Of a stretch of 64,000 nucleotides of DNA, positions 1,839 to 49,910 are shown one piece after another. Under the pieces are notes generated by a model. That model saw only the letters and a program-made list of their open reading frames with translations. It had not been told where the DNA came from and made no database searches. How positions within the stretch are numbered: position 1 is the stretch's first letter; every line of letters starts with the position of its first letter. Both the position numbers and the translations under genes were made by a program. This DNA is from a virus (Duplodnaviria; Heunggongvirae; Uroviricota; Caudoviricetes): the IMG/VR virus record IMGVR_UViG_3300031994_005355; one strand, written 5' to 3'.

Positions 1839-1861
1839 GAATAAGAAAGGAGGTAGTATAC

Positions 1862-9035: not shown

Positions 9036-9551
9036 ATGTATTATAAGTATCATTGTGGTAATGAAATATTAAGAGTATTTTCTTATGCAGCATCAAATCC
9101 ATTCAATAAGACAGTTGTAGTTGAAGTCGGTCCAAGAGATTATACACGCTCTATTCGTGAAGATGAAAAAGGTGAATTCTTCACATGGAACAAACAGAAG
9201 ATCTACGTTAATGATTGGATCCGAATGACTATGGCTGAACTGAGAGATAATCTACATAATGATGACTACTGGATGGTTAGTGATGACTTATGTATCGCCA
9301 TAGCTACTGATGGTCCGGAGAATGTGAGACTAGCAGTACCTAATAAACTTTTATACTTAGATGGAGACGATGTAAGTATCTGTCATATAGAAGAGGAATT
9401 TAATAGAAAGGTGCTTCAGAACTACAAGTTAAATCTTGTATTTGAAGATGAGTATGGGGATAGAAGAGTTAGGGATTTCTACACTTCTGATCTCTTCTCT
9501 ATGATACGTTCTGGTTTAATAACTATTGAGGACTCTGTGAAAAATACTTAA
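9036..9551 (+). CDS. hypothetical protein
   Basis: ORF track; AAAGGAG RBS. Confidence 0.5.
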   Translation: MYYKYHCGNEILRVFSYAASNPFNKTVVVEVGPRDYTRSIREDEKGEFFTWNKQKIYVNDWIRMTMAELRDNLHNDDYWMVSDDLCIAIATDGPENVRLAVPNKLLYLDGDDVSICHIEEEFNRKVLQNYKLNLVFEDEYGDRRVRDFYTSDLFSMIRSGLITIEDSVKNT

Positions 9552-10517: not shown

Positions 10518-12044
10518 ATGAGAAAAACTTGTCTTGTAAAACAAGTTGTGCGTATACGACTTTATCCAAATAAAACTCAACAGATATGGCTTGACTGTAA
10601 TTTTCAAAATGCAATTGACTATCATAATTATCTCCTTGCAAATATTTATGAAGATGACGTGGAAATTGATGAAGAAACTGGTGAAGAAAAAGATGTTATT
10701 AGAATAAACTGGGATACTATAAATAGTAAATATGGATTGGCAACATTACAATCTAAATTCCATTATGCTCTTAGAAATGTTACAGAAGATAGAATACGTA
10801 CAGATCGAAATAATTTAAAGATTACACAGTATTATCGTGGACGTACTATTGAAAATATTTATGATCAAGTATGCAATGACGTTAAAAAGAACTTTTGTAC
10901 ATTTTATCGTGATGGTAAAGGGAAACCAAGATTTAAATCAAACCGTGGTAGAGTAACATTTAGGATGCCACAAAATAGCCGTGACTTACATTTAGTAAGA
11001 CGCAAAGATGAAATGAATCATGATAATGGTTTTGATTTCAAAATTAATAGAATTGAGAAGAAACACAGCTCTAAATTATCTCATAATTTAGGTTGGTTAC
11101 ATATACCATCTTGCGGTGCTGGTAATGATAATGCTGATGATTTTATAAAGTGCTTTGCACCATGTAACATAAGTAAGGAAGATATCAGTTCTATCACATT
11201 TATACGTGAAGCATCTGGAAAGTATTACGCCACTATTGTATTACGTATAGGAAGAGTCTATTTATTTAAAAAGCAAGCACTTGATGATATGTTATGTGAA
11301 AAACAAGTAGGTGTTGACATAAATCTTTCACCTAAAACAAGAGTAGTTACTAGTACTTTTCAGGGTGATGTTACTGAGTTCAAGTTCGAACAAAAAGAAG
11401 AGATAATACAAGCACCAACACCATATAAAGATTATTTCTCCAAACTACGTAAAGAGCAACGTTCACTCTCTCGCAAAGTAAAGTTTTCTAAGAATTGGTT
11501 TAAGCAAAAACAAAAGGTTGCTCACATTCATGAAAAGATTGCAAATATACGATTGAATTTCAATAGACAAACAGCAGCCTATCTAACCAAGAATTACCAA
11601 TCAATCGCAATCGAAGATTTGAGTATTACTCAAATGAAACGTGGTCAACCACGTTGGTTCCAGAAGCTCTACAATGATGCTAACCTATACCAGTTACGAC
11701 AGTGTATTCGCTGGTCTTGTCTTAAGACAGGAAGAGAACTAAACTACGTTTCACCAGAGCATACCTCAAAAACTTGTCATGATTGTTGGTACACTAATCA
11801 TGATTTGAAACTAGGACAGAGTTCCTGGGTATGCCCTAACTGTGGGGTAATCCATCATCGAGATAGGAATGCTGCTAGGAATATCTACAGCCTTGCATGG
11901 GCCTATGACGAGGTTGAAGGTGAATTATTAGAGAATCAAGTAACCTATGATCCATTCGAAGAGCGACAGCCAGTAAATAATCTCTATTTCCTAGAAAATC
12001 TTTCAAAACGTATTGGAGAAGAAGTAACAACAGTTTCAGCTTAA
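10518..12044 (+). CDS. tnpB: TnpB (OrfB) RuvC-like nuclease, 508 aa
   Basis: RuvC-I VGVDINLSP, RuvC-II IAIEDLSITQM, Zn finger CHDCW...CPNCG, RuvC-III HRDRNAARNI. Confidence 0.85.
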   Translation: MRKTCLVKQVVRIRLYPNKTQQIWLDCNFQNAIDYHNYLLANIYEDDVEIDEETGEEKDVIRINWDTINSKYGLATLQSKFHYALRNVTEDRIRTDRNNLKITQYYRGRTIENIYDQVCNDVKKNFCTFYRDGKGKPRFKSNRGRVTFRMPQNSRDLHLVRRKDEMNHDNGFDFKINRIEKKHSSKLSHNLGWLHIPSCGAGNDNADDFIKCFAPCNISKEDISSITFIREASGKYYATIVLRIGRVYLFKKQALDDMLCEKQVGVDINLSPKTRVVTSTFQGDVTEFKFEQKEEIIQAPTPYKDYFSKLRKEQRSLSRKVKFSKNWFKQKQKVAHIHEKIANIRLNFNRQTAAYLTKNYQSIAIEDLSITQMKRGQPRWFQKLYNDANLYQLRQCIRWSCLKTGRELNYVSPEHTSKTCHDCWYTNHDLKLGQSSWVCPNCGVIHHRDRNAARNIYSLAWAYDEVEGELLENQVTYDPFEERQPVNNLYFLENLSKRIGEEVTTVSA

Positions 12045-18442: not shown

Positions 18443-19984
18443 ATGTTAATACAGTACGCAATGTTACCTGTAATCCTTATCATTCTTGGAGTTATAATCC
18501 TACTTACTATTTTAGCTTCTGGATATGTCAAGGCTCCACCTGACATGGCTTTTATCATTTCAGGTATGCATAAGAATCCACGTATTCTTATAGGACGAGC
18601 AGGAATAAAAATTCCGTTCTTTGAGAGAGTCGATCGTCTATATCTTGGACAGATGACAGTTGACATTAAAACTGAACAGCCGGTACCTACAAATGATTTT
18701 ATCAATGTAAATGTGGATGCTGTCGCTAAGATCAGAATTATCACGGATACAGAAGTTGAACTAAACGTGAATGGAAACGTAGTAAAGGAAAAAGGAATAC
18801 TCCTCGCATCGAAGAACTTCCTTAATATGTCACCTGATCGTATTGCAAACGAACTTATGGACTCCCTACAGGGTAACATGAGAGAAATCATCGGAACACT
18901 CGACCTACGTTCTATAAACACAGACAGAGATAGTTTCTCAGACCAGGTTATGGAGAAAGCTAGCAAGGACATGGCTAAGCTTGGTATCGAGATAATCTCA
19001 TGTAACATTCAGAACGTTACCGATGAGAATGGTCTAATCAAAGATCTCGGTGCAGACAATACCTCTAGGATTAAGAAGGATGCAGCCATAGCAAAAGCAA
19101 ACGCCGACAAGGAAGTTGAAGTAGCACAGGCTGAAGCAAGTAAAGAAGCTAATGATGCACGTGTCAGTGCTGAAGCTGAAATAGCTCAGAAGAACACAGA
19201 CCTTGAAATCAAGAAAGCTGAACTAAAGAAAATGTCTGAAACAAAGCGTGCAGAAGCAGAAGCAGCTTTTGAGATTCAGAATCAGATACAGCAGAAGTCT
19301 ATAAAGACAGAGACCGTTAATGCAGAGATCGCACAGGCGGAAAGAGAAGCAGAGCTGAAAGAGAGACAGGTTCTTGTGCGTCAGCAGGAGTTAGCTGCTA
19401 CTGTTGAAAGAGAAGCAGATGCTAAGAAGTATGCAGCTGAAAAAGAAGCAGAAGCAAAACTCATACAGACACAGAAAGAAGCAGAGGCAATCCTCTACAA
19501 GCAGATGAAAGAAGCTGAAGCAATCAAGGCACAGGGTGAAGCTGAAGCTGCAGCCATCAGTGCTAAGGGTAAGGCTGAAGCAGATGCAATAGCAGCAAAG
19601 GGTCTGGCGGAAGCTGAAGCAATGGATAAGAAAGCAGAAGCTTACAAGAAGTACAATGGAGCCGCTATGGTTGAGATGTTTATCAATATTATGCCACAGA
19701 TGGCTGCTGAGATCGCTAAGCCGCTGTCCACGATTGATAAGGTAAATATCTATGGAGGAAGTGGAGCTGACAATGGTGTGTCTTCTATGTCTGGGAACCT
19801 TCCACTTGTGATGCAGCAGGTGATGGATACTATGACTGAAGCTACAGGTGTTGACATGCGGGAGATCATCAAGGCAGGAACATATGATGCTAAGGTCAAC
19901 AAGAACGTGAATGTGAATGGTCTTGACAATCTGGTCAAAATTGAAGAGACAAAGGTTGAGAGTCCTGTGGAAGAAAAGAAATAA
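18443..19984 (+). CDS. flotillin-like SPFH/Band-7 protein (FloT/YuaG family) with EA-repeat coiled coil
   Basis: N-terminal TM, PPDMAFIISG, SPFH core, long EA/AEAEA repeat region, C-terminal GAAMVEMFINIMPQMAAEIAKPLSTIDKVNIYGGSG closely matching B. subtilis FloT C-terminus. Confidence 0.85.
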   Translation: MLIQYAMLPVILIILGVIILLTILASGYVKAPPDMAFIISGMHKNPRILIGRAGIKIPFFERVDRLYLGQMTVDIKTEQPVPTNDFINVNVDAVAKIRIITDTEVELNVNGNVVKEKGILLASKNFLNMSPDRIANELMDSLQGNMREIIGTLDLRSINTDRDSFSDQVMEKASKDMAKLGIEIISCNIQNVTDENGLIKDLGADNTSRIKKDAAIAKANADKEVEVAQAEASKEANDARVSAEAEIAQKNTDLEIKKAELKKMSETKRAEAEAAFEIQNQIQQKSIKTETVNAEIAQAEREAELKERQVLVRQQELAATVEREADAKKYAAEKEAEAKLIQTQKEAEAILYKQMKEAEAIKAQGEAEAAAISAKGKAEADAIAAKGLAEAEAMDKKAEAYKKYNGAAMVEMFINIMPQMAAEIAKPLSTIDKVNIYGGSGADNGVSSMSGNLPLVMQQVMDTMTEATGVDMREIIKAGTYDAKVNKNVNVNGLDNLVKIEETKVESPVEEKK

Positions 19985-22274: not shown

Positions 22275-23798
22275 ATGAAAGCATCTGAAAGAATCAAATC
22301 AGATTTAGCTACATACTTTTCAAAGAATGGTATTACAGATGCTGAAAAGAGTATTGTTAAATTAAAAGGACTTCTTCATCAAAGTGTATTAGAGGCTGAA
22401 GGATTGACGCAAGAGAGTGAGTTAGTTAAAGCATGGACAGCTCTACAGTTACAAGAAGGTTTACCTTTTAGGTATGATGTTAAAACCAATAGTATTTATA
22501 ATATTGACACTGTTGTGGAGTTTAAAACTAAACGTTTTTTATACAATATTATAACTACAAGTGTTTTAAATAAAACAGGATGCTTTGCAATAACTGGTTC
22601 GAGAAGAGTGGGTAAAACAATTCTCTTAAAGCAGCTGTATAATGATAATATGTCTTCATCAGAATTCTTAGACTGTTCGGTACGATATCCTATGAACTTC
22701 AATGAATATTATAATACTATTATACAAGCGGGTAAAAAGTATGTATTTATAGATGAAGTTTGTAAGCTTACTGACAATCATTGTGAATTTGTAAGTGCTA
22801 CTAAAGCTGCAGCATCTAAGCTATGCATTATCATAACAGGAAGTACAAGTTTCGTAATTGAAGACATGTGTGAGGATATTGGAAGGGGTGAAATTTACAC
22901 ATTACCGCCATTTATGTATATAGAGACTTTGAGTTGGCAAAAAGATGCCACATTAAATGATGTTATGCAGTATGTATCTAATGAATCATTCATAACATAT
23001 TTGAAAAGTCAGTTCATGTCAAATATGGAATTGATAGATTATATGCGTGGTGTTGTACACGATACCATAGCATCATATAGAAATCATTCGACTCTGGAGG
23101 GAGAGATTTCGTTATCAACTAAAGAGTTAGATAAGTGTTTAATTTACATATCAGTGTGTCAATTATTATACCGTAGGAGTACTGATAATCAGTTTATAGA
23201 TATGCCAAATATAGGTCCTGTAGTAAAAGAGTGTCTTAGAAGTAAAGACATTTTTAGTGTAACAGAGCGTCTTGGTTTGAAGAATAATACAATAGAAACT
23301 GTACTTGACATTTTATGTAGTTGTAATCTTGCTAAGAAAATAAGAGTATTAAAGGATACACATAATACAAGTATTGATGCATTTTTATTTGAGTATCCAT
23401 GGTACGTTAGCTATTGTTTAAGCCCGAGTATACAGGACAGTGAAATTTTATTAGATTTATGGGTTGAATATTATATTCTTATGAAAGCATACTATGTATA
23501 CTCTGATATTGCAAAGTTTAGAACTGGAGCTCAAGAAGAGATTGATGTGTTATACAGAATTAACGGATGGTTAGGATTAGAAATAAAAAATAGACCTGAT
23601 ACAAACTTAACAAGAAAATATAAAGCAAAGCTACAAGAATTATCTAATACATATAGTATTTCAGATATATTTATTTCAAATAAGTCATGTAATGCTAAAA
23701 TAGCAGCAAGTCTGGAACTAGAATACATTAGGTTGCTTAATGAAGGATTAACATATTCAACATTTAATATTCAGGATCTTTTAAATAAATACTTTTGA
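22275..23798 (+). CDS. AAA+ P-loop ATPase (COG1373/DUF4143-like) with shared N-terminal family module
   Basis: Walker A GSRRVGKT, Walker B VFIDEV; N-terminal IKSDLATYF...VKAWTALQ...PFRY homologous to 3814 and 45223 ORFs. Confidence 0.6.
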   Translation: MKASERIKSDLATYFSKNGITDAEKSIVKLKGLLHQSVLEAEGLTQESELVKAWTALQLQEGLPFRYDVKTNSIYNIDTVVEFKTKRFLYNIITTSVLNKTGCFAITGSRRVGKTILLKQLYNDNMSSSEFLDCSVRYPMNFNEYYNTIIQAGKKYVFIDEVCKLTDNHCEFVSATKAAASKLCIIITGSTSFVIEDMCEDIGRGEIYTLPPFMYIETLSWQKDATLNDVMQYVSNESFITYLKSQFMSNMELIDYMRGVVHDTIASYRNHSTLEGEISLSTKELDKCLIYISVCQLLYRRSTDNQFIDMPNIGPVVKECLRSKDIFSVTERLGLKNNTIETVLDILCSCNLAKKIRVLKDTHNTSIDAFLFEYPWYVSYCLSPSIQDSEILLDLWVEYYILMKAYYVYSDIAKFRTGAQEEIDVLYRINGWLGLEIKNRPDTNLTRKYKAKLQELSNTYSISDIFISNKSCNAKIAASLELEYIRLLNEGLTYSTFNIQDLLNKYF

Positions 23799-32175: not shown

Positions 32176-32859
32176 ATGTATGATGAATTAGCACACATTG
32201 AACGTATTTATGGTTCAGTTGCTGAGTATAACCGTGTAAAAGAGGAAGAAGCTTATAGTAATTACGAACCTTCACAAACAGAACTTATAGAAGAAGAGAT
32301 ACAACATAAAGTCTATAATAAGAAAATTGAATTACTAAATGGAACACCAAGTGAATTAGCACAACAGATAAAAGAAAAAATAAAGAATAAACGTCCAAAA
32401 CAGGCAGGTGAATTCTGGTCAAGTGCAGATCACTACAATGCCTGCCAGTATGATAGAAAAGTGAAATTCCTAGTTTTAAAAGAACTATGTGACGTGTATG
32501 GAGCAACTTTCTCTAACGATAAGAATTATTTTGCAACTGCACCTGGGACTTTTGGATTTGCACTGGAGTACGAAAAAGATTCACGTATATTGACTTTATC
32601 TGTGAAGGATTTAGACTACGAAACTTTTAAGAAACTTTACAGAGATATACAACACATTTTCACTTGGGTTTCAGTATGTTATAGAGATGAGAGTAATAAT
32701 TCACACCTTGTATCTAATACAAGTTTAGGTGGTTTACGTATTGCAGATTTTAAATGGTGGGGATTAGAAACTGTAGAAAACTTAAATAAAGAACTTACTA
32801 ATTTAGGATTTAATGAAGAGAACTATATTGAGCAACTCAGAAAGGAACTACATGAATAA
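32176..32859 (+). CDS. hypothetical protein
   Basis: ORF track. Confidence 0.5.
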   Translation: MYDELAHIERIYGSVAEYNRVKEEEAYSNYEPSQTELIEEEIQHKVYNKKIELLNGTPSELAQQIKEKIKNKRPKQAGEFWSSADHYNACQYDRKVKFLVLKELCDVYGATFSNDKNYFATAPGTFGFALEYEKDSRILTLSVKDLDYETFKKLYRDIQHIFTWVSVCYRDESNNSHLVSNTSLGGLRIADFKWWGLETVENLNKELTNLGFNEENYIEQLRKELHE

Positions 32860-33265
32860 ACCTATTACAGTTCGTTGGAAAAGTGAATTATCTAATATAG
32901 GCGAACATATGATACCTAATAGTGGTTTATGGTACACACAGGACTTTGGAAATAAATGTATACATTACTATGATATTCACGGCAATTATAAACATGCTAA
33001 TCCATATAAACCTGAAGAAATACAACTGATGCCAAACTCTGGGATTGAGTTAGAAATGACTGCCGCAAAAGAAACAAGTAGTATAAAATTATTTCTAACT
33101 AACACTGGATGGGAAATTCATAGTATAGGATTAAAGTACAATCACATAATTCTTTACTACAAGCCTACTACAGATATAGAATTAGTATTAAGTTCTGATG
33201 AACAGTTAAATGACAAACAGGTTGACTGGAATTTAATGGTCTATGAAACTATTGAAAGAAGGTGA
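32852..33265 (+). CDS. hypothetical protein
   Basis: ATG at M14 of track ORF 32813; ATGA overlap with upstream stop. Confidence 0.45.
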   Translation: MNKPITVRWKSELSNIGEHMIPNSGLWYTQDFGNKCIHYYDIHGNYKHANPYKPEEIQLMPNSGIELEMTAAKETSSIKLFLTNTGWEIHSIGLKYNHIILYYKPTTDIELVLSSDEQLNDKQVDWNLMVYETIERR

Positions 33266-33431: not shown

Positions 33432-33810
33432 GGGCCTGTACTGGTTTCGACGGGGATATAAAAGTACAACTTGCATCGGGTGGTCACCTATAACCAACTT
33501 AAATACAGACGCTAAGCCTGTAGCTATGGCTGCTTAATCTTAAGATTAAGTAGTTCCGACTTGTTCGGCTCTGTTAGAGATGTTGCACACTAACTCAACT
33601 CTACAGTGACTAAAGTAATTACGTGTGATGTCGGCAACTCAACAAGCGTGAGATACAGTCAATCCGATGAAACTGTGATATCGCTAACCCTATCGGTAAT
33701 GGTTTGTTGTATGCCTAGTAACAAGGGTAAATGTTACTGAAATATGAATAAGATGTAGATGGTTGTATGACTAGTATTTTCGGACAGGGGTTCGACTCCC
33801 CTCAGGTCCA
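33432..33810 (+). ncRNA. ssrA: tmRNA (ssrA)
   Basis: 5-prime GGGCCUGUACUGGUUUCGACGGGG matches tmRNA 5-prime consensus; 3-prime T-arm aggggttcgactcccct and acceptor caggtcc pairing with 5-prime gggcctg; internal ACUUAAAUA followed by frame ...D A K P V A M A A TAA (tag-like); terminal CTA instead of CCA. Confidence 0.75.
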
Positions 33811-33826
33811 CTACAAGGAGGAAGCT

Positions 33827-40853: not shown

Positions 40854-40859
40854 AACTTC

Positions 40860-41500
40860 TGTACATCGACCGTAAGGTTCAAAGTAAAGGTAGAGTGTGG
40901 TGAGACGCCGTTACGCAGAGGTATGGTTGGGAAGAGAAAAGCTAAGGTATAGTAGAGTTTAGTAAAGCTCAGTCTAGTAATGGTACAGCTCGGTGAGGTG
41001 TAGTTTAGCGATGGCATCGCGAGGTGTGGTCCTGTATGGTAATGGCATTGTATGGTATTGTGATGTAGGGTAAAGTAATGGCATGGTGATGTATTGTTCC
41101 GCTATGGTATTGTGCAGTCCGGTTATGTCATGTAGTGGCAAGGTGCGGTCTTGTATGGTAATGGTGCCGTTCAGTACTGTCCAGTCAGGTTACGTCTAGG
41201 TATAGTGTAGCTGAGTCTCGTGATAGTATAGTGTGGTATCGTGATGGCATAGTCATGTCCAGAGTCGTTACGTAACGGAAAGGTATTGTAAGCAAAGTGA
41301 CGTCATGGTAACGTAGCGCCAGGTCCGGTTATGCCCTGCTTTGGTATGGTTGAGAAAAGAAAAGCTAAGCCGAGGCAAAGTAAAGCAACACACAGCAGTG
41401 GTATTGTGACGCAGTGTTTTGCAGAGGTAATGCCTAGTATCGCTAGGTAATGAAACAATGTGGGAAAGTAGTATGCCATGCTTTCCCACATACAAAAAGA
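40860..41500. repeat. C-poor GT/A-rich noncoding island with >20 irregularly spaced ATGG(T/C)A / TGGTA short repeats and longer degenerate repeats
   Basis: No plus-strand ORF (dense TAG/TAA/TGA); repeated ggtatggttgRgaaRagaaaagctaag (40920, 41342) and tcYtgtatggtaatggYRYYg (41028, 41150); ends with 11-bp perfect hairpin atgtgggaaag...ctttcccacat (41458-41492). Confidence 0.5.
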
Positions 41501-41518
41501 AATGGGAGATTGTAGTAA

Positions 41519-41876: not shown

Positions 41877-41963
41877 TGTTATAGTAACCAAACCACGTAT
41901 TGCAACCCTACGGTAATGTACAATATAGTATGTTACCCTAGTGTTGTAAGAAAGGAGAAACAA

Positions 41964-43199
41964 ATGAATTTATCAGAACTATTAAACAATCCACAGTTTG
42001 CAGACCTTCCGGAAGAGAAAGAGGAAAAGAAAGCAAACCACCGTCACACAGACATGAAGCGTCCTGAAGAGGAAGTCAATCTTCTATCTCTTGCTTTAGA
42101 GGACACGGAATATCGTCGTCACACTGCTGACCCTACACCTGACCTCATAGAAGTTAAAAATGGACTTACTCCTGACGAGCTTCCTAAAGCTACTGAGGAC
42201 GCATATCTAGTTTGGTGTGAATGGTCAAGGCAGACATGGTTCTGTCCCACGAAGAAGTGCCTCAATCAAAACTTTATCTATCGAGAAGATCTTCTCATTG
42301 AAAAGACTGACACACAGGAAGCTCTGGAAAACTTCTATCATGATCATGGTGGGATACACAATCCTGGTATCATTTCTACCCGCAAGTGTTACATCCTTGA
42401 CGATCCTGCAAACGAGAGCTACGAGGTCTACTATGATTCAGCGATGCCAAGCCTTAAGTATGGAAAAGCAACACCGAACGGCATGTTTGTTCATTGCTAC
42501 GACAACCGATTCCACAGAGACATGGCAATCCTTGAACTTGATGACCTCTACAGTAACCAGTCATCAAAGAAAGCTGGACGCCTTGTTAGTAGACCATATG
42601 GAGCTGATGAAGCAATCATAGTTTCAGATGGTGCATGGATGAAAGACTCATGCTCAGCTTCTTTTGTCTACCTTGACAATACTCTTGTCATTGATCACAC
42701 AGTTGGCTTCTGTCCTAGTGAACCTGATCAGGCAGTCCTCATCGCTGAGATCACAGGTGCGACTGAAGCTCTCAAGATGTGTGCACAGAACAATAAAACC
42801 AACATCAAATACTACTATGACAACACATCTATACTGAATGTTTTCAAGAATCACAAGACAGAGTATATTCGTGAAATCAAGGAGTACAAAGACTTGCTTG
42901 CAGATATGGACAAGCAGGGTTATAAGATCGAGTTCATCGAGCTTCATCCTAAGACAGGTGAAGAACGTAATAAAGATAACAAAGCTTTAATGTTCTTCCA
43001 TAACAAGTGTGATCAGAACTGTCGCAACATGGCTGACATTTTCACAAAAGACTACCGTGTTTTCGCTACAGACTCTAAGCGTGATGGCTCCACATATGAA
43101 GATGTGAAGAACTCTATGCCTAAGCCGAAAAACAAGAATGTTGGTAACTTCAAAGCTGGAGCACACGGTGGTAACAATAAGTATGGACGAAGATTCTAA
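41964..43199 (+). CDS. RNase H (type 1) domain protein with ~200-aa N-terminal domain of unknown function
   Basis: ATG 41964 after AAAGGAG; IIVSDGAW (D), LIAEITGATEALK (E), YYYDNTSI (D), HNKCDQNCRNMAD (H..D) order as in RNase HI. Confidence 0.65.
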   Translation: MNLSELLNNPQFADLPEEKEEKKANHRHTDMKRPEEEVNLLSLALEDTEYRRHTADPTPDLIEVKNGLTPDELPKATEDAYLVWCEWSRQTWFCPTKKCLNQNFIYREDLLIEKTDTQEALENFYHDHGGIHNPGIISTRKCYILDDPANESYEVYYDSAMPSLKYGKATPNGMFVHCYDNRFHRDMAILELDDLYSNQSSKKAGRLVSRPYGADEAIIVSDGAWMKDSCSASFVYLDNTLVIDHTVGFCPSEPDQAVLIAEITGATEALKMCAQNNKTNIKYYYDNTSILNVFKNHKTEYIREIKEYKDLLADMDKQGYKIEFIELHPKTGEERNKDNKALMFFHNKCDQNCRNMADIFTKDYRVFATDSKRDGSTYEDVKNSMPKPKNKNVGNFKAGAHGGNNKYGRRF

Positions 43200-43226
43200 C
43201 TAACACAAAAGTAAAGGAACATAAAT

Positions 43227-43586
43227 ATGAATAATAAAGTAGTAGAAGAAGGAACAGCATGGTTTGATATAGCAATGCATAACAATTTAATGAGACTTGC
43301 TATTAAAAGAGTGATTGTAAGTAATCACCATACAATAGTATTATGGAATGATAATACAAAAACAATAGTTACTTGTCGTGAAGATGATGAAGATAACTAC
43401 TCAATTGAGACAGCAGTCATGGCAGCATTTCTTAAGAAGATTTTGGGAGCACATGCTTTTCATAAGAAACTTGAGAATGGCTTAAATCGTGTAGTAGTAC
43501 AGGATCAGTTTATTAAAGTAAAGAAACCTGTGACAAGAGATTCTAAAGGTAAGTTTGTAAAGAAAAAGACTACCAAAACAAACTAA
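43227..43586 (+). CDS. hypothetical protein
   Basis: ORF track; AAAGGAAC RBS. Confidence 0.45.
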   Translation: MNNKVVEEGTAWFDIAMHNNLMRLAIKRVIVSNHHTIVLWNDNTKTIVTCREDDEDNYSIETAVMAAFLKKILGAHAFHKKLENGLNRVVVQDQFIKVKKPVTRDSKGKFVKKKTTKTN

Positions 43587-43597
43587 TATTTTACGGA

Positions 43598-43624
43598 TCG
43601 GAGTAGTGTCAAAAGCTACTCCGG
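43598..43624 (+). terminator. terminator-like hairpin cggagtag-tgtcaaaag-ctactccg
   Basis: 8-bp perfect stem after gene stop, short U tract. Confidence 0.4.
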
Positions 43625-43645
43625 TCTTAATATGAAACATAAATA

Positions 43646-43717
43646 ATGCCCCGTAGTCAAGAGGTAAGGCATCGGACTTTGACTCCGTCATTCGCGGGTT
43701 CGAATCCCGCCGGGGTA
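43646..43717 (+). tRNA. tRNA-Gln (anticodon TTG)
   Basis: Acceptor tgccccg/cggggta, anticodon loop ctttgac, T-arm gcggg-ttcgaat-cccgc; resembles bacterial tRNA-Gln. Confidence 0.8.
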
Positions 43718-43737
43718 GTTTATTAAAGGATTAAATC

Positions 43738-45198
43738 ATGACTACATTAAATATTGAGGAACTGCTTTATTCAAATAGTATATGGGAATCAGTACTGGGT
43801 GAAATGTGGGTACGTAAAGTAGAACCTGAAACGGTTGCAAGAATTACTATGTTAGATTATCGCTACGATATTTGTAATAAACTTATTACAGGTAGTTATA
43901 AATTTAATCCACCTAAATTAGTACATATACCGAAAGATGATGGAACACTGCGTGATCTTCTTATTTTAGAGGACCAAGATAGGATAGTCATGCAGGTTCT
44001 ATATAAAATATATTATAGTTTATACAAAAGCAATATTCATTCATCATGTATGAGTTATCAGACTGGAGTATCTGTAAAAGATATTGCTGTACAAATACGT
44101 AACGGACTTAAATCAGAGTTACAGCGTTATAAACTTGATATATCAAAATATTTCGACTCTGTGCCTCAAGATGTAATAAACAGAGAATTGAATAATATGG
44201 ATCCTACATCTGGACCAACAGTATCTCTTTATAATTTCTATAATGATAACCGTATCATTGTGCATGGTAAAGAAGTTGAGCATTTCAAATCATTATGTCA
44301 AGGTTGTTCATTTAGTGCATTACTAGCAAATGTTATACTCTATGATATTGATGAATATTTATCAGCGCACGCTGATATGTATATCCGTTATTCTGACGAT
44401 ATGTACATTCAAGATGCTAATGTTAATGCATTAATTGTTAAAGCAAAAGAGATGCTTGCTCATAAAGGTCTCATACTAAAAGACTCTAAGGTTCAGCAAC
44501 TTGCAACCTCATTTGATTTTGTTGGTGTACATATTTCACCTACTAGACTATCCATAGGTAAAAAAGGATTAAGAAATATATGCAATAATATCAAACAAAA
44601 GTTGAAGAATAAAACTAGTCTTGAAAGAGCAATACGTGCAGTGCAGAGTTATTTATTATCTTCTGATACTAATGGTTATTCAGCACTAAGTTATTGGTTT
44701 AATATTTGTACAAATGTGGATGACATTATAAAGTTGGACAGAATGATTAAAGATGAAATAAGATATCACTTCACCAACAAACATAATATTGTACATAATA
44801 TACATCAGTTACCTAATCAAGCTTTCAAAGAAAGTGGTTGGGTGTCACTTGAATATTTATACAGATTGTACAAACACGATAAGAATGCATATAAAGCATA
44901 TAGTGCTTACATTCTGCATAAGTATATGCTTACACCTAGTAAGATACGTTCGTATATGACAATTGATAAGATATCTAGTGATTTACTCAAATTTTGGGAA
45001 ACAGCAAAATATGCTAAGCATAGTCCATTTATAACGTATGAAAAACCACTAGATGTTGATTTCAATATCTCATCGTATGAAAGTAATACTGCACGAGAAT
45101 ATATGTGTAACATCATTAAAAATGCAACAATTGATTTTGGTGAGGATAAGTTCATAAAAGTAACTGATGAGTTATTTTTATTTAAAGATTGGTTTTGA
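43738..45198 (+). CDS. reverse transcriptase (group II intron/retron/Abi-UG lineage) with thumb-like C-terminal extension
   Basis: RT1-2 LVHIPKDDGTLRDLLILEDQDRIVMQVL, RT3 YKLDISKYFDSV, RT4 QGCSFSALLANVIL, RT5 YIRYSDDMYI, RT6 GLILKDSKV, RT7 FDFVGVHI; ~190 aa after RT7. Confidence 0.85.
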   Translation: MTTLNIEELLYSNSIWESVLGEMWVRKVEPETVARITMLDYRYDICNKLITGSYKFNPPKLVHIPKDDGTLRDLLILEDQDRIVMQVLYKIYYSLYKSNIHSSCMSYQTGVSVKDIAVQIRNGLKSELQRYKLDISKYFDSVPQDVINRELNNMDPTSGPTVSLYNFYNDNRIIVHGKEVEHFKSLCQGCSFSALLANVILYDIDEYLSAHADMYIRYSDDMYIQDANVNALIVKAKEMLAHKGLILKDSKVQQLATSFDFVGVHISPTRLSIGKKGLRNICNNIKQKLKNKTSLERAIRAVQSYLLSSDTNGYSALSYWFNICTNVDDIIKLDRMIKDEIRYHFTNKHNIVHNIHQLPNQAFKESGWVSLEYLYRLYKHDKNAYKAYSAYILHKYMLTPSKIRSYMTIDKISSDLLKFWETAKYAKHSPFITYEKPLDVDFNISSYESNTAREYMCNIIKNATIDFGEDKFIKVTDELFLFKDWF

Positions 45199-45222
45199 TA
45201 ACATAAGTGAAAGGTAAAATAA

Positions 45223-47241
45223 ATGAAAGAACTAGAGTTCGCTACAATAAGATATGCTCGTAATATTTTGCATAAGTACTATCTCACAATAGGTGACCTT
45301 GAAGGTTATTGTCGTACATCATGTACCTATGATACAACTGTTTTAGATTTATATAAGGAAAAGTATGATAAGATTTTAAAAGTAATTCCTAAGGCTTTAC
45401 CTGTAACAGAAGATTCATATACTTTTGAAAAAGAACAAAATATAGTAGAAGCAAGTAGAGCTCAATTTTTAAAAGTAATAAAAAAGGATGTAGCTCAGTA
45501 TGCATTAGATAATGGATATACTGATGTACCAAAAATGGTTAATGACTTAGCTTCAACAATAACTGATGGTGTGTTAAAATCTAAATATAAAGATATGTTA
45601 CCAGACCTTAGTGAATTAGAATCACCACTTATTAAGGCTTGGCTTGCTATACAGATAACTAATAATTCTCCCTACATTTATGTTCCGGTACAAAATGATC
45701 ATGGAAGATTAGTATATGGTCATTTCAAGAATACAGCTTCTAATGGGATATTTGATGATCAGACATTTAAGGATGTAATAAATCCTCATATAACATGTAA
45801 TGCGCATTCAAATAAACCAAGAATTTCGACAAATATAAGAACCATGCGTTATAATCCTTATCTTGTACGTAGATGGTTACCTAATCAGTTTCTTGAAGAA
45901 TTTATGAACATAGAGAATAATAAAGTACTTGGATTTAATGAAAAGTTATTTGAATCGTATAAAGAACTTGGATTTGAGTGGCGTCATTGTAAATCCTATG
46001 ACAAGGATAAGTATTACGTTAAAAGTATGGAAATTAAAGACCACACAAAACCTATTTATTCAAAGTTGTGTATTATAGGTGAATTTATAGGAGCTATAAG
46101 AGATAATTCAAATCTACGTGTTATAAAGAAAATAGATTATAAAGCTTATTCTAAAATACTAGATTACATACATGCATGTGTCTTAGATAATCACCAGGCT
46201 GACACAACAGTGTTAGAAAAATTATTACCAGATGTCGATCTATTTAAATTTATTGCTTTAGATAAAACTCCAGCAATGAAAGAGAGTATAAAAAGTGCTT
46301 ATGAGGTTCTTGAATATTTAGCTATAGATAAATTTGTAGGCTCTTCACGTGATGAAAAAGTGATTAAGGAAGTACGGGATTTTATACAAAGTGTGACATC
46401 TGATACCGAACTTTTACAACGACAACCTAGCGTAGCATTGATAAATGAAAATGATATGTTATCATTCTTTGATCTTCTTTATATGAAGTATGGTAATGGC
46501 TGGGTACAGGTATGTTATCCTGATGTATCACCTGAAGCAAAAGCTAGAAGTATAAGTAGACAGTACGAACGGAGAGCTCGTACCAATTATTTACCTCAGT
46601 ATGTACGTGAGTTACGTAGTAGAAAGTCAAAGAGAGCCTGGTCAAGGTATTTAAGTGCCATTACTAATATAATACAGAATCCTAATTATGTAACTGATAC
46701 GATCGCAGACATTAATGAAATCATTAATAATGCATTATTGAATAATGTTAAATATGCAGTAGACGAAGTAAAAGCTGCAAGTGATGAGTATCCCTATCTA
46801 AAAGAATTATTAGAGAGGAAACAAAATGTATTTAAGTGGCGCATATTCAACGGATTTACATATTATGGTTCTGATGCATATTATCGTATACACAGAGATA
46901 TGGTATTTACAAAGCGTCGTATAAAAGCACAAACACCAAACTGGTACCACATATTCAATAAAAAAGAAGATTTAAAGGTTGCTGAGTATTATACGGAGTT
47001 AGATAATCTTAACACATTTGAAGACTTCTTTAGACGTGGTGCTGTCTATACTGTGATACATTACCGTGTGTCATACAAACACGAGTCCCTTGACACAGTT
47101 TGTCGTGAGGTCACTAAAGCATTTTCAAAAGGTATGAGTGTAGTGGAGATCGAACACGAATTCTTAAACAACGTTGAAGATTGCACGGCTTATTACAATT
47201 ATATGCAAGAAGCACATTTTAATACACTTATAAAGAGATAA
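45223..47241 (+). CDS. 672-aa RT-associated protein containing the shared family module
   Basis: 25-nt gap after RT; aa ~90-160 IKKDVAQYA...IKAWLAIQITNNSPYIY homologous to N-termini of 3814 and 22275 ORFs. Confidence 0.55.
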   Translation: MKELEFATIRYARNILHKYYLTIGDLEGYCRTSCTYDTTVLDLYKEKYDKILKVIPKALPVTEDSYTFEKEQNIVEASRAQFLKVIKKDVAQYALDNGYTDVPKMVNDLASTITDGVLKSKYKDMLPDLSELESPLIKAWLAIQITNNSPYIYVPVQNDHGRLVYGHFKNTASNGIFDDQTFKDVINPHITCNAHSNKPRISTNIRTMRYNPYLVRRWLPNQFLEEFMNIENNKVLGFNEKLFESYKELGFEWRHCKSYDKDKYYVKSMEIKDHTKPIYSKLCIIGEFIGAIRDNSNLRVIKKIDYKAYSKILDYIHACVLDNHQADTTVLEKLLPDVDLFKFIALDKTPAMKESIKSAYEVLEYLAIDKFVGSSRDEKVIKEVRDFIQSVTSDTELLQRQPSVALINENDMLSFFDLLYMKYGNGWVQVCYPDVSPEAKARSISRQYERRARTNYLPQYVRELRSRKSKRAWSRYLSAITNIIQNPNYVTDTIADINEIINNALLNNVKYAVDEVKAASDEYPYLKELLERKQNVFKWRIFNGFTYYGSDAYYRIHRDMVFTKRRIKAQTPNWYHIFNKKEDLKVAEYYTELDNLNTFEDFFRRGAVYTVIHYRVSYKHESLDTVCREVTKAFSKGMSVVEIEHEFLNNVEDCTAYYNYMQEAHFNTLIKR

Positions 47242-47368
47242 ATAACTAAAGCTTTGTCCTAGGCTACACTAACTATGTTTCTTAATCCACAATACAAATC
47301 ACTACGTGATTCGTATTGATCTTAATCGTATTGTAGAAATAGGACAGTTAGAAACCAGGTTAGTGTAT

Positions 47369-47450
47369 GCACCGCTGATGGAATTGGCAGACATGCAAGA
47401 TTTAGGTTCTTGTGCCGGAAGGCGTGTGGGTTCAAGTCCCACGTGGTGCA
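47369..47450 (+). tRNA. tRNA-Leu (anticodon TAG), type II
   Basis: Acceptor gcaccgc/gtggtgc, anticodon stem caaga/tcttg loop tttaggt, variable hairpin gcc-ggaa-ggc, T-arm gtggg-ttcaagt-cccac. Confidence 0.75.
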
Positions 47451-47534
47451 TCGACATTGGTGTGTACACCTCCAGTATAATCCTGTTAACTAATCTTGCA
47501 TCACAAGTACACACCAATGTCATAAAGGAGCATT

Positions 47535-48182
47535 ATGGATATAATGACAATAATATCTTTTCTTACTGCACTGGGTAATACTATGACACACCCTGAGACA
47601 ATAGTAATATGTGGTGGTACTTCTATCGCATTGGAACATGGATTTAGACAATCGACTGAAGATATTGACTGCATAGAGTGCAGTGCTTATACAGCAAAGA
47701 TAGCACATATAATAGCACGACATTACACTTTGCATATAGCATTAAGTAGTCATGTTTGTGTAACTGACTCGTACAGTCCAAAGTTATTGTATTATGCAAC
47801 TACTTATGGTAAGTTTGGAAATCTTACTGTAAAAACAATATGTGGTGTACCATTACTTTGTATGAAGTTAAAGTCATATCGTCAAAATAGTAAAGATAGG
47901 ATTGACTGTGAATTTCTACTCAAAGAAGCAATTACTTATGGAAAGACGTACGACGATGTTCTTACTACGTTCAAAGACATTTATGGTAATGAAGCACTAA
48001 TGCCTATAGCTGCTGAGACAGCTTTACGTAGAGCATTCAACATACAAAATGTTGAAGAGATACAGGATAAACTTTCTAAGTTTTCAAAACTTATCAATGA
48101 TGGTCTTCTTAGTATAAATGACATTCCGGTAGAATATCGTAATCAAATTCTTGAATATACTTTGGAGAAGGCTGATGACTAA
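47535..48182 (+). CDS. nucleotidyltransferase-fold protein
   Basis: ICGGTSIALEHGFRQSTEDIDCIE matches GGxS...DxD NTase motif. Confidence 0.5.
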   Translation: MDIMTIISFLTALGNTMTHPETIVICGGTSIALEHGFRQSTEDIDCIECSAYTAKIAHIIARHYTLHIALSSHVCVTDSYSPKLLYYATTYGKFGNLTVKTICGVPLLCMKLKSYRQNSKDRIDCEFLLKEAITYGKTYDDVLTTFKDIYGNEALMPIAAETALRRAFNIQNVEEIQDKLSKFSKLINDGLLSINDIPVEYRNQILEYTLEKADD

Positions 48183-48588
48183 AAAAGTTTTAATAAAAGA
48201 TGTTTATGATAAGCTACGTAAAGCATATGACGACTTGCAAGATGTAATTGAATTAGAGCTAAAAGACAGTGAAGACATTGTATCGTACTTAAAACGTGAA
48301 GAAGAGATTTATGAGACAATAATTACCTATCAAAGTATTATAGATAACTTTGATATCAACACTACTGTTGAGGAATATGAATATACTGTATCCACTTTAA
48401 AGAATGCACTAGAATGGAAACGTGATCAACTAAGGCGTTTACACAAATTCAAACAAGCCTATCATGATGACACAAACATACTTAACAGATATAATGAAGT
48501 ACGTGATGATGTGATAAAAATGGAAAATGCATTACAGCGCATATATAACTCAAATTATGTATCAATAAACACTACCACTGAAATATGA
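48175..48588 (+). CDS. helical partner protein, possible HEPN-like (RDQLRRLH = Rx6H)
   Basis: ATG overlaps upstream stop (ATGACTAA); weak HEPN-motif guess. Confidence 0.35.
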   Translation: MTKKVLIKDVYDKLRKAYDDLQDVIELELKDSEDIVSYLKREEEIYETIITYQSIIDNFDINTTVEEYEYTVSTLKNALEWKRDQLRRLHKFKQAYHDDTNILNRYNEVRDDVIKMENALQRIYNSNYVSINTTTEI

Positions 48589-49415: not shown

Positions 49416-49910
49416 ATGATGTATAATGAGGTCACACGGTACTACGAAATGTTAGCTAATTCAGCTATAATAAATCACAATACTAAACGTAATTATTTGA
49501 AACATAATAGCATTTGTAAATTTTGTGGGGCTAAAGCTACAACTATAGATCATATAATACCGTGTCAGGTATTTGAAATGACAATGGAGTTTGAAGAGGA
49601 TTTCAGAAGTGCCATACGTGACAAGTCTAATTGGCAACCTGCATGTAAAGCATGTAATAAACGTAAACGAGCTGCATTTACAATAAAAGATATCCCTACA
49701 TATTTATATAATAAATATAAAGATTGTATTGATAAGTATATTGCATTACGTAAACAAGTATTAGAAATTCAAAATTATAAATGTGCAGGTTGTGGTAAAG
49801 AAGTAACAGAAGATACTACAGTATTAAGATATAAACGTAACTATAATGGAGAACGTGATAACATTCATGGAATGATTGTCACATGTATAGAGCATGAGAC
49901 TAGAAACTAA
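49416..49910 (+). CDS. HNH endonuclease
   Basis: CKFCGAKATTIDHIIP...NWQPACKACNKRK. Confidence 0.65.
   Translation: MMYNEVTRYYEMLANSAIINHNTKRNYLKHNSICKFCGAKATTIDHIIPCQVFEMTMEFEEDFRSAIRDKSNWQPACKACNKRKRAAFTIKDIPTYLYNKYKDCIDKYIALRKQVLEIQNYKCAGCGKEVTEDTTVLRYKRNYNGERDNIHGMIVTCIEHETRN

What the first reader, a model, noticed from the sequence alone, without database searches (positions are those of the whole stretch)
41964..47450. Free-standing reverse transcriptase module bracketed by tRNA-Gln and tRNA-Leu, with a 672-aa partner and an upstream RNase H-domain gene
ORF 43738-45198 carries the full RT motif set RT1-RT7 of the group II intron / retron / Abi-UG lineage, with YSDD in place of YADD. 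A roughly 190-aa thumb-like tail follows RT7. It has no RT0/GIDG, no endonuclease domain and no flanking ribozyme domains: tRNA-Gln ends about 20 nt before its start codon and a coding gene follows. It is therefore not a group II intron. Its motif 4 is QGxxxS rather than the DGR-type SQ, so it is not a DGR RT. A 672-aa protein of unknown fold follows after a 25-nt gap. That protein contains the N-terminal module shared by two other proteins in this window, suggesting a modular effector. An RNase HI-fold protein fused to an unknown N-terminal domain sits about 0.5 kb upstream. tRNA-Leu(TAG) closes the block. This architecture (orphan RT, large partner, separate RNase H, tRNAs on both flanks, carried on a phage-like element) matches no retron, DGR or group II intron. 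It most resembles defence-associated Abi/UG/DRT RT systems, but with a distinct partner. It could be a phage-borne superinfection-exclusion or anti-defence RT system, possibly tRNA-primed.
Basis: partly seen in the sequence, partly recalled or inferred. Interest (0 to 1): 0.85.

Follow-up and report, generated by a model that had tools for sequence, protein, structure and literature searches.

The report
Divergent UG27-like phage reverse transcriptase module
A large uncultured phage carries a free-standing reverse transcriptase from a little-known, phage-borne family (UG27) in an unusual stripped-down form with its own partner protein, while the neighbouring RNase H gene and tRNAs turn out to be unrelated bystanders.

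The parts
43738..45198 (+). Reverse transcriptase, 486 aa, UG27-like sister clade. The RT domain and UG27-model match cover residues 8-351 (nt 43759-44790). YSDD is at residues 218-221 (nt 44389-44400). A clade-specific C-terminal extension covers residues 352-486 (nt 44791-45195).
   Evidence: PADLOC RT_UG27 scores 218.6 bits (E 3.5e-65) against UG26 at 101.7 bits. Pfam RVT_1 matches residues 64-266. The catalytic residues are invariant in alignment A1. The NJ tree places it in a sister clade with L001/L004, L002/L091 and L010. Sister-clade RTs score 183-246 bits and canonical RTs 510-760 bits.
45223..47241 (+). A 672-aa partner candidate that starts 24 nt after the RT stop codon. It has an internal shared module of about 70 aa at residues 84-160 (nt 45472-45702). 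The putative UG27-partner core domain ('YNPYLVRRWLPNQF...') lies at residues 209-283 (nt 45847-46071).
   Evidence: It has no homolog in two exhaustive searches. The shared module is shown. An N-block profile built without p672 ranks p672 as the top non-training hit among 14,118 ORFs (E 0.02); within the 211 window ORFs it scores E 3e-4. The family HMM matches residues 209-283 with E 0.0015 among window ORFs, and the next ORF scores 0.35. The single-sequence structure model is unusable (pLDDT 34).
43227..43586 (+). A 119-aa basic-tailed protein, a possible accessory of the RT. Its only detected homolog lies next to the RT of the related jumbo phage L001.
   Evidence: It is 41% identical to L001 11600-11956, which sits directly downstream of that RT. 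It is absent from L004 and from the other RT loci. It has no Pfam, PHROG or PADLOC hit and no profile match to the canonical UG27 neighbours.
43647..43718 (+). tRNA-Gln(UUG), ending 19 nt upstream of the RT start codon. It is adjacent to the RT and probably co-transcribed. It has not been shown to belong to the module.
   Evidence: ARAGORN and Rfam detect it. The adjacency is not conserved in the other RT loci.
47368..47452 (+). tRNA-Leu(UAG), downstream of p672. A bystander.
   Evidence: Searches detect it. No conserved association was found.
41964..43199 (+). [quoted passage not shown] It is a conserved backbone gene of this phage group and is not part of the RT module.
   Evidence: The structure and fold evidence is. 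It has at least 135 homologs at 44-66% identity. The three related loci L251-L253 have no RT within 10 kb.

Best explanation
The locus is a divergent UG27-type (class 2 UG/Abi) reverse-transcriptase module in the accessory region of an uncultured phage of about 294 kb.

Shown: the RT is intact and catalytically competent by sequence. It belongs to a sister clade of canonical UG27. That clade lacks the canonical tandem ncRNA array and the canonical 158-aa partner.

Shown with moderate support: in each of the sister-clade lineages sampled with enough flanking sequence, an RT-adjacent protein carries a 'G-x-WNP-x-x-F/I-R/H-R-x-L/V/I-P' core domain. These proteins are very variable (272 to 772 aa, sometimes several paralogs), and the family is marginally linked to the canonical 347-aa UG27 partner. 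The 672-aa protein right after the RT is this phage's version. It also carries a module of about 70 aa that recurs in two other proteins of the same phage.

Inferred from the characterised class 2 UG RTs (DRT2, DRT9, DRT10): the RT reverse-transcribes an RNA template, probably iteratively and possibly protein-primed. The resulting cDNA, or an RT-cDNA complex, acts together with the partner in phage-host or phage-phage conflict, as anti-defence or superinfection exclusion. It is unlikely to serve the core replication cycle, because closely related phages lack it. The template is unidentified.

The RNase HI-domain gene is a conserved gene of this phage group, probably involved in replication or primer removal. 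The two tRNAs are ordinary phage tRNAs. Their proximity to the RT is positional, not functional.
For: RT family: the curated UG27 model scores 218.6 bits, about twice the next family, and the same holds for all sister-clade RTs tested. Literature: UG27 is phage-encoded, is not enriched in defence islands, and comes with two accessory proteins of unknown function and a structured ncRNA (PMC9226505).

Canonical architecture, re-derived here from 80 IMG/VR loci: RT, a gap of about 890 nt, a 158-aa protein (77 loci) and a 347-aa protein (74 loci). The gap is an array of 3-7 units of about 175 nt with covariation-supported structure.

Absence in the window: the two partners by hmmsearch; the ncRNA by nhmmer and by covariance model R2, which does find untrained canonical loci at E 2e-7 and 1.6e-4.

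Sister clade: NJ tree.

Partner domain: L001, L004, L010, L002 and L091 are linked by this block. The independent locus L254 has three downstream paralogs that carry it (E 5e-7 to 3e-4). p672 is the top non-training hit. The family HMM matches p672 209-283 with E 0.0015 among window ORFs. The sister-clade partner family reaches canonical 347-aa proteins at E 0.004, and L008's 207-aa RT-adjacent protein is a true homolog of that partner's C-terminal half.

Accessory status: related jumbo-phage loci lack the RT, and the RT sits in a different context in L001.

Mechanistic precedent for class 2 UG RTs: PMC12632851.
Against: The assignment of p672 to the partner family rests on a short region. It scores 13.7 bits on the block and 10.3 bits over 75 residues, and E is only 0.02-0.1 against the 14,118-ORF set. 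hhalign gives low probabilities. The C-terminal block profile does not recover p672. No usable structure model could be made.

No RNA template was found. The mechanism is entirely by analogy. UG27 itself had no function assigned in the papers I could read.

The tree is a simple NJ tree without support values and without reference sequences for other UG groups. The phage nature of the contig is indirect.
Confidence: 0.6

Rival explanations
1. An integrated, previously undescribed RT system consists of the RNase H-domain protein, a tRNA primer (tRNA-Gln or tRNA-Leu), the RT and the 672-aa effector, all working together.
For: The parts are physically close and co-oriented. The tRNA-Gln ends 19 nt before the RT start codon. 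RNase HI activity would be useful for removing an RNA template. In L001 the RT module lies about 1 kb upstream of a tmRNA gene. Two related phages thus have a tRNA-like gene near the RT, whereas none of the canonical loci among the first 90 scanned does.
Against: p427 has at least 135 homologs but occurs with no RT in L251-L253, and no RT locus other than this phage's own has a p427 homolog. RNase H1 is a known conserved replication protein in several jumbo-phage groups (PMC7824862). tRNA adjacency rests on two related phages whose genomes carry scattered tRNAs. The RT belongs to a known family.
Confidence: 0.08
2. The RT is a solitary, selfish or decaying cargo gene that hops between variable regions of jumbo phages. 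The 672-aa ORF is an unrelated lineage-specific gene that merely sits downstream.
For: p672 is an ORFan. The RT lies in different contexts in the window and in L001. The window contains other mobile genes: two TnpB/IS605-like ORFs and an HNH endonuclease. The partner-domain evidence is only moderate.
Against: The RT's catalytic motifs are intact and conserved. Every sampled sister-clade lineage with enough flank has an adjacent protein with the same block, including an untrained test locus, and p672 is the best match among window ORFs by more than 200-fold. A 24-nt spacing with a GAAAGG Shine-Dalgarno-like sequence suggests co-expression.
Confidence: 0.17
3. The RT makes untemplated, protein-primed DNA, as AbiK and other class 1 Abi RTs do. 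That would explain why no ncRNA is found.
For: No ncRNA was detected by Rfam, nhmmer or the covariance model. Protein priming is common in this superfamily (PMC12632851).
Against: The RT scores far better on class 2 models (UG27, UG26, UG17) than on others. It lacks the HEAT-like repeat domain of class 1 RTs, since Pfam reports RVT_1 only. Its closest characterised relatives are templated.
Confidence: 0.1
4. It is a group II intron maturase, a retron RT or a DGR RT that has been misread.
For: The best solved-structure sequence matches are a group II intron RT (GsI-IIC, E 1.7e-16) and proteins deposited as retron-type RTs. This is expected for any bacterial RT.
Against: There are no intron or retron RNA families at E<=1. 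There is no template/variable repeat pair and there are no flanking inverted repeats. The retron and CRISPR-associated RT models score 46-102 bits against 218.6 for UG27. There is no endonuclease or maturase X domain.
Confidence: 0.02

Closest known systems
UG27 (class 2 UG/Abi reverse transcriptases; Mestre et al. 2022, NAR, PMC9226505)
   Same: It is the best-scoring curated RT model by a factor of two. Both are phage-encoded. Neither RT has a fused known domain. Both are accompanied by proteins of unknown fold. The adjacent partner shares a short core domain that is marginally linked to the canonical 347-aa partner.
   Different: The window RT matches only model positions 7-360 of 420, at 218.6 bits against 510-760 for canonical members. 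It has a clade-specific C-terminal extension of about 135 aa. It has no tandem array of 175-nt ncRNA units and no 158-aa partner. Its partner is 672 aa and an ORFan. The host genome is a jumbo phage of about 294 kb, not the 40-140 kb Bacteroidales and Firmicutes phages or prophages that make up most canonical loci.
DRT10 (UG17), DRT2 (UG2) and DRT9 (UG28): the characterised ncRNA-templated UG RTs
   Same: They belong to the same RT superfamily and, by PADLOC scores, are next-nearest relatives (UG17 76 bits, Drt9 69 bits). DRT10 likewise pairs an RT with a protein partner.
   Different: Those are bacterial anti-phage systems with defined ncRNA templates and, for DRT10, a SLATT partner. Here the element is carried by a phage, no ncRNA was found, and the partner is unrelated to SLATT.
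UG26
   Same: It is the second-best curated model (101.7 bits over 335 residues).
   Different: It scores less than half of UG27. Its function and context were called inconclusive in the literature.
Jumbo-phage RNase H1 (replication or primer-removal enzyme; Iyer et al. 2021, PMC7824862)
   Same: The p427 C-terminal domain has the type-1 RNase H fold and the DEDD residues. It is conserved across many large-phage contigs, independently of any RT.
   Different: p427 carries an additional conserved N-terminal domain of about 200 aa of unknown fold. No homolog was found in deposited phage genomes.

Membership tests
UG27 (class 2 UG/Abi RT system) | The RT best matches the UG27 profile | tested here: met
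   PADLOC RT_UG27 scores 218.6 bits (E 3.5e-65) over residues 8-351; the next family, UG26, scores 101.7 bits. The match is partial (model positions 7-360 of 420) and weaker than for canonical members, which score 510-760 bits.
UG27 (class 2 UG/Abi RT system) | The RT falls inside the UG27 clade in a phylogeny | tested here: inconclusive
   An NJ tree of 29 representatives puts it in a sister clade (window, L001/L004, L002/L091, L010) next to the canonical clade. There were no reference sequences for other UG groups and no support values.
UG27 (class 2 UG/Abi RT system) | Structured ncRNA between the RT and the accessory genes | tested here: not met
   The canonical region is an array of 3-7 units of about 175 nt. 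nhmmer finds nothing in the window at E<=10. Covariance model R2 finds untrained canonical loci (E 2e-7 and 1.6e-4) but nothing in the window (best E 0.22, inside coding sequence) or in the sister-clade loci.
UG27 (class 2 UG/Abi RT system) | Associated small accessory protein of about 158 aa | tested here: not met
   It is present in 77 of 80 IMG/VR loci. It is absent from the window by hmmsearch and jackhmmer. The only hint is a weak match between the RT's C-terminal tail and its C-terminus (hhalign P 0.006).
UG27 (class 2 UG/Abi RT system) | Associated accessory protein of about 347 aa | tested here: inconclusive
   There is no direct HMM hit. p672 209-283 matches the sister-clade partner family (E 0.0015 among window ORFs; block profile E 0.02 among 14,118 ORFs). 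That family in turn reaches canonical 347-aa proteins only at E 0.004.
UG27 (class 2 UG/Abi RT system) | Encoded on a phage; no additional known domain fused to the RT | tested here: met
   The contig is 293.7 kb and its relatives are jumbo-phage-like. Pfam finds only RVT_1.
Group II intron RT/maturase | Flanking ribozyme domains; maturase X or endonuclease domains | tested here: not met
   There are no intron RNA families at E<=1 in 40.7-47.7 kb. A tRNA and a coding gene abut the ORF. No X or En domain is present.
Retron | An msr/msd ncRNA with flanking inverted repeats next to the RT; a retron-type RT profile | tested here: not met
   No inverted repeats lie near the RT and there is no Rfam hit. 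Retron RT models score at most 53 bits.
Diversity-generating retroelement (DGR) | A template repeat / variable repeat pair near the RT | tested here: not met
   There are no direct repeats of 30 nt or more above chance in 36-52 kb, other than within the pentamer tract. Motif 4 reads QGxxxS.
DRT10 (UG17) / DRT2 / DRT9 | RT of that UG group plus its ncRNA (and a SLATT partner for DRT10) | tested here: not met
   UG17 scores 76 bits and Drt9 69 bits, well below UG27. The neighbours have no SLATT or other Pfam domain.
RNase HI (for the 427-aa protein) | Type-1 RNase H fold with the DEDD catalytic carboxylates | tested here: met

The most novel reading that the evidence does not exclude
The sister clade may be a distinct RT system that has dispensed with a dedicated ncRNA array and uses another RNA encoded nearby. 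One candidate is a tRNA-like RNA: tRNA-Gln lies 19 nt upstream of the RT here, and a tmRNA lies about 1 kb downstream in L001. Another is the transcript of the 580-nt tract with a phase-locked 5.17-nt period, which lies 2.3 kb upstream of the RT. In this reading the RT makes a cDNA that the large 'WNP..RR..P' partner uses. That would be a phage-borne counter-defence or exclusion device with a new template logic.
Probability: 0.07. Interest if true: 0.85.

Novelty: new variant of a known kind. Interest (0 to 1): 0.45.

Why it matters
UG27 is the one UG/Abi group that lives mainly on phages rather than in bacterial defence islands. No paper I could read assigns it a function. A sister clade that keeps the RT and a recognisable partner core, but lacks the ncRNA array and the small partner, helps define the minimal conserved unit: the RT plus a 'WNP..RR..P' protein. 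It also offers contrasting natural variants for experiments.

Two by-products may be useful. The canonical UG27 ncRNA is a tandem array of structured units of about 175 nt. Bacteroides phage BS-TP1, an isolated phage, carries a canonical UG27 RT that is annotated as a tail protein, which makes it a practical experimental entry point.

The finding does not open a new class of retroelement. The RNase H and tRNA elements that made it look exotic are incidental.

Tried and rejected
1. Close-relative searches. A megablast of the locus against deposited phages found nothing. A single-sequence pattern scan of IMG/VR also found nothing. An alignment-based scan was needed.

2. p672 homologs. A word-indexed search, an exhaustive phmmer search of 1.84 billion representatives and a search of PDB sequences returned only p672 itself. 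The AlphaFold single-sequence model was useless (pLDDT 34), so I ran no fold search on it.

3. p672 against the canonical 347-aa partner directly. hmmsearch gave nothing and hhalign gave P 0.09. A C-terminal motif that looked similar by eye ('FFRRGAVYTVIHY' against 'YWRAGLFYTLINH') was not supported by a block profile, so I dropped it.

4. The idea that the RT's C-terminal extension is a fused copy of the 158-aa partner. hhalign gave only P 0.006 over 43 columns, and jackhmmer did not recover it. I kept it as a weak lead.

5. The 119-aa protein as a disguised canonical neighbour. It matched none of 14 neighbour families.

6. The (GYNNN)n tract as the RT's ncRNA. It is absent from about 250 RT loci and from the p427-syntenic loci, so conservation gives no support for a link. 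A collection-wide pattern search was not possible, because variable-gap patterns must start with 4 plain bases and fixed runs are too short to be specific.

7. The first covariance model, built on the automatic RNAalifold structure, had only 5 pairs. I replaced it with R2.

8. The 2026 bioRxiv preprint that mentions UG27 74 times (10.64898/2026.09.22.753630) is indexed but could not be opened. Its results are not taken into account here.


Full report
OBSERVATION. The block is as described. ORFs lie on the + strand at 41916/41964-43199 (427/411 aa), 43227-43586 (119 aa), 43738-45198 (486 aa) and 45223-47241 (672 aa). tRNA-Gln(UUG) lies at 43647-43718 and tRNA-Leu(UAG) at 47368-47452. The tRNA-Gln ends 19 nt before the RT start codon. 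p672 starts 24 nt after the RT stop codon, behind a GAAAGG Shine-Dalgarno-like sequence. The 486-aa protein hits Pfam RVT_1 (residues 64-266, E 1.3e-15). It carries RYSDD and SLCQGCSFS, both invariant among its closest relatives. Rfam finds nothing but the two tRNAs in 40.7-47.7 kb, even at E<=1. There are no DGR-type repeats and no retron-type inverted repeats.

WHAT THE RT IS. Against PADLOC's curated RT models it matches RT_UG27 at 218.6 bits (E 3.5e-65, residues 8-351). The next models are a generic RT model (102.3 bits), UG26 (101.7), UG17 (76), Drt9 (69) and retron models (at most 53). UG27 is described in Mestre et al. 2022 (PMC9226505). It is a class 2 UG/Abi RT with no fused domain, not enriched in defence islands, and found in more than a thousand predicted gut phages of Bacteroidetes and Firmicutes. 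It is associated with two protein clusters of unknown function and a putative structured ncRNA.

CANONICAL UG27 ARCHITECTURE, RE-DERIVED. I collected about 250 RT loci from IMG/VR, metagenomes and genomes. In the 80 IMG/VR loci the architecture is RT (about 421 aa), a gap of about 890 nt, a protein of about 158 aa (77 of 80 loci) and a protein of about 347 aa (74 of 80). Most genome hits are Bacteroidales (Alistipes, Bacteroides, Prevotella, Muribaculaceae), with some Firmicutes. The gap is not one RNA with three hairpins. It is a tandem array of 3-7 related units of about 175 nt. Each unit has conserved boxes (ATAAAG..ATGTGYC, TGAGAAC, AGCAC) and a long three-segment hairpin. In that structure 89% of cells are paired and 13 pairs carry compensatory changes. 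None of 500 shuffles reaches the observed values for four of five measures (9 of 500 for the fifth), and all slid controls score far lower.

WHERE THE WINDOW RT SITS. Its nearest relatives are only 37-39% identical (P0002-P0004). An NJ tree places it with L001/L004, L002/L091 and L010 in a clade sister to canonical UG27. Canonical RTs score 510-760 bits end to end on the UG27 model. The tested RTs of the window's clade and related long-RT lineages score 183-246 bits over model positions 7-360 only, still well above UG26 in every case. Most of these RTs are longer, with a distinct C-terminal extension ending in a conserved 'F/LKDW' motif. None of these loci has the canonical 158-aa or 347-aa proteins. 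None has the canonical ncRNA unit either. nhmmer finds nothing in the window at E<=10. Covariance model R2 detects untrained canonical loci (L011 at 2e-7, L027 at 1.6e-4) but nothing in the window, where the best hit is E 0.22 inside coding sequence with filters off, and nothing in L001, L002, L004, L010 or L091.

THE 672-aa PARTNER. It has no homolog in 5.8 billion clustered proteins or in an exhaustive phmmer search of 1.84 billion representatives. It has no Pfam, PHROG, PADLOC or PDB match, and its single-sequence model is unusable. Residues 84-160 form a module shared at 32-33% identity with the N-termini of two other window proteins, 3814-4797 and the AAA_14 ATPase 22275-23798.

The RT-adjacent proteins of the other sister-clade lineages share a block, G-G-V-x-WNP-x-x-F-R-R-x-L/V-P-x-Q-F. 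These are L001 and L004 (284 and 275 aa, upstream of the RT), L002 and L091 (272 and 275 aa, downstream) and L010 (381 aa, downstream). p672 has YNPYLVRRWLPNQF at residues 210-223. As a prospective test I fetched an untrained lineage, L254 (P0012). Three large paralogs downstream of its RT (772, 435 and at least 380 aa) all carry the block (E 5e-7 to 3e-4).

A block profile built from these 8 sequences, without p672, ranks p672 first among all non-training ORFs in a set of 14,118 (E 0.02). Within the window's 211 ORFs it gives E 3e-4, and the next ORF scores 1.1. A jackhmmer run from the L254 772-aa protein unites the L254, L001, L004 and L010 partners at 1e-19 to 1e-34. Its next-best hits are canonical 347-aa proteins (E 0.004). 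Its final HMM aligns p672 residues 209-283 at E 0.0015 among window ORFs, and the next ORF scores 0.35. L008's 207-aa RT-adjacent protein is a clear homolog of the C-terminal half of the canonical 347-aa partner.

I conclude, with about 65% confidence, that p672 is a highly diverged and expanded member of a fast-evolving UG27 partner family. A C-terminal resemblance I saw by eye was not supported. A possible relic of the 158-aa partner at the RT's C-terminus is only a weak lead (P 0.006).

tRNA adjacency is likewise not a family trait. Among the first 90 loci, only this phage (the window and its own duplicate contig L005) and L001 (a tmRNA about 1 kb downstream) have a tRNA-like gene within 1.5 kb of the RT. 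The one neighbour that does recur is the 119-aa protein, which is 41% identical to a gene directly after the RT in L001. It is absent from L004 and from every other locus.

CONTEXT. The exact RT and p672 occur on a 293.7-kb contig. L001 comes from a related phage contig of 180 kb. Many of its genes are 40-95% identical to window genes but are rearranged, and its RT sits between a homolog of window gene 32813-33265 and the tmRNA gene. In the window that site holds no RT. The RT module is therefore accessory and has moved. The window also holds two TnpB/IS605-like genes, an HNH endonuclease and a DUF6036/AbiEii-like nucleotidyltransferase, which fits a variable conflict-gene region. No deposited phage has a p427 homolog. 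The best deposited-phage match to the RT is the canonical UG27 RT of Bacteroides phage BS-TP1 (28% identity), annotated there as a tail protein.

MECHANISM. Shown: an intact RT of the UG27 lineage; a downstream partner with the family's core block (moderate support); absence of the canonical ncRNA and the small partner; accessory status. Inferred: by analogy with the characterised class 2 UG RTs, which reverse-transcribe an ncRNA template iteratively into repetitive cDNA, with protein priming in DRT9 and DRT10 (PMC12632851), this RT probably makes a cDNA from an as yet unidentified RNA and acts with p672. Because it is phage-borne and dispensable among relatives, anti-defence or superinfection exclusion is the most plausible role, as Mestre et al. 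suggested for UG27. Overall confidence in the identity and architecture is about 0.85. Confidence in the mechanism is about 0.35.

AN UNEXPLAINED NEIGHBOUR. The 665-nt gene-free gap between 40853 and 41519 contains a G/T-rich tract (40872-41447, GC skew up to +0.53). It is made of about 111 degenerate units of the form G-[T/C]-N-N-N. Of 86 successive GT-to-GT spacings, 43 are exactly 5 nt, against 5% elsewhere in the window (binomial P 5e-32). The periodogram shows one sharp peak at 5.16 nt, with power 13.3 against a shuffle maximum of 2.5, and the peak is stable across sub-windows. The 6-nt units recur every 4-7 units. As a result, phase coherence over the whole tract is 0.85, against 0.55 +/- 0.08 when the order of unit lengths is permuted (0 of 3000 permutations reach it).

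A phase-locked non-integer period of 5.17 nt equals 31 nt per 6 units. Two units span 10.3 nt, about one turn of B-DNA. This points to helical geometry, either protein binding phased on double-stranded DNA or a helical nucleoprotein. The tract is absent from all RT loci and from the p427-syntenic loci, so nothing links it to the RT by conservation. Its closeness to the RNase H-domain gene and its G-rich RNA-like strand suggest an R-loop or origin function. That idea is untested.

VERDICT. This is a genuine, intact retroelement-type RT module, filed as a new variant (sister clade) of the known phage-borne UG27 family. It is not a categorically new system. Interest is moderate.

Noticed in passing
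window 40872-41447 (+ strand), in the gene-free gap 40854-41518: A G/T-rich tract of about 580 nt made of about 111 degenerate G-[T/C]-N-N-N units. Its period of 5.16-5.18 nt is phase-locked: 6-nt units recur every 4-7 units, and coherence is 0.85 against 0.55 for permuted unit orders (0 of 3000 permutations reach it). Two units span about 10.3 nt, roughly one B-DNA turn. It is not in Rfam. It is absent from all related loci examined, and its function is unknown. An origin, an R-loop site or a phased protein-binding site are possibilities.
   Followed up: partly
window 33432-33811; L001 12575-12956: A phage-encoded tmRNA with tag peptide AKPVAMAA. The same tag occurs in the related phage L001, where the RT module sits directly upstream of the tmRNA gene.
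   Followed up: partly
L006 9267-10107 and about 45 other canonical UG27 loci (for example L036, L049, L087): The canonical UG27 non-coding region is a tandem array of 3-7 related structured units of about 175 nt. The units have conserved boxes and a covariation-supported long hairpin. It is not a single three-hairpin RNA.
   Followed up: yes
window 3814-4797, 22275-23798, 45472-45702: A module of about 70 aa (I-K-x-D-L-A-x-Y...T-D...K-A-W-x-A-L-Q) is shared by three otherwise unrelated proteins of this phage. One of them is an AAA_14 ATPase. It may be a common targeting or interaction domain.
   Followed up: partly
window 1736-3475 and 10518-12044: Two TnpB/IS605 OrfB-like genes (Pfam OrfB_IS605 plus the Cas12f1-like TNB domain) sit inside the phage genome.
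   Followed up: no
window 47535-48182 (and the overlapping ORF 48151-48588): A DUF6036/AbiEii-like nucleotidyltransferase lies immediately after tRNA-Leu. The sister-clade RT locus L002 is also surrounded by several nucleotidyltransferase/HEPN gene pairs, which suggests conflict-gene neighbourhoods.
   Followed up: no
L252 8529-10000: In a related 290-kb phage contig, the 1.47-kb gene-free region upstream of the p427 homolog carries a different iteron-like repeat (GTAAGACA...CCTAT, about 8 copies). It occupies the same relative position as the window's pentamer tract.
   Followed up: no
L001 about 9310-9430 and L004 about 1190-1305: A conserved small ORF of about 37 aa with a CxxC...C...C pattern (MTKSSSPRYPCRGCIYYSQCGNSNRTLPCSGRK...) lies between the 284-aa partner and the 179-aa gene upstream of the RT. 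Gene callers did not annotate it.
   Followed up: no
L254 1-5926 and 8410-13533: Here a long-RT lineage sits next to a cluster of five TerD-domain genes and a Fic gene. It is followed by three paralogous partner genes, one of them with a Cys/Gly/Ser-rich tail.
   Followed up: partly
PQ571274.1 79363-80430 (Bacteroides phage BS-TP1, hit H1): An isolated Bacteroides phage encodes a UG27-type RT that is annotated as 'tail protein'. It is a misannotation and also a possible experimental model for UG27.
   Followed up: no
window 18443-19984 and 49416-49910: A phage-encoded SPFH/flotillin-like protein and an HNH endonuclease lie in the same variable region.
   Followed up: no
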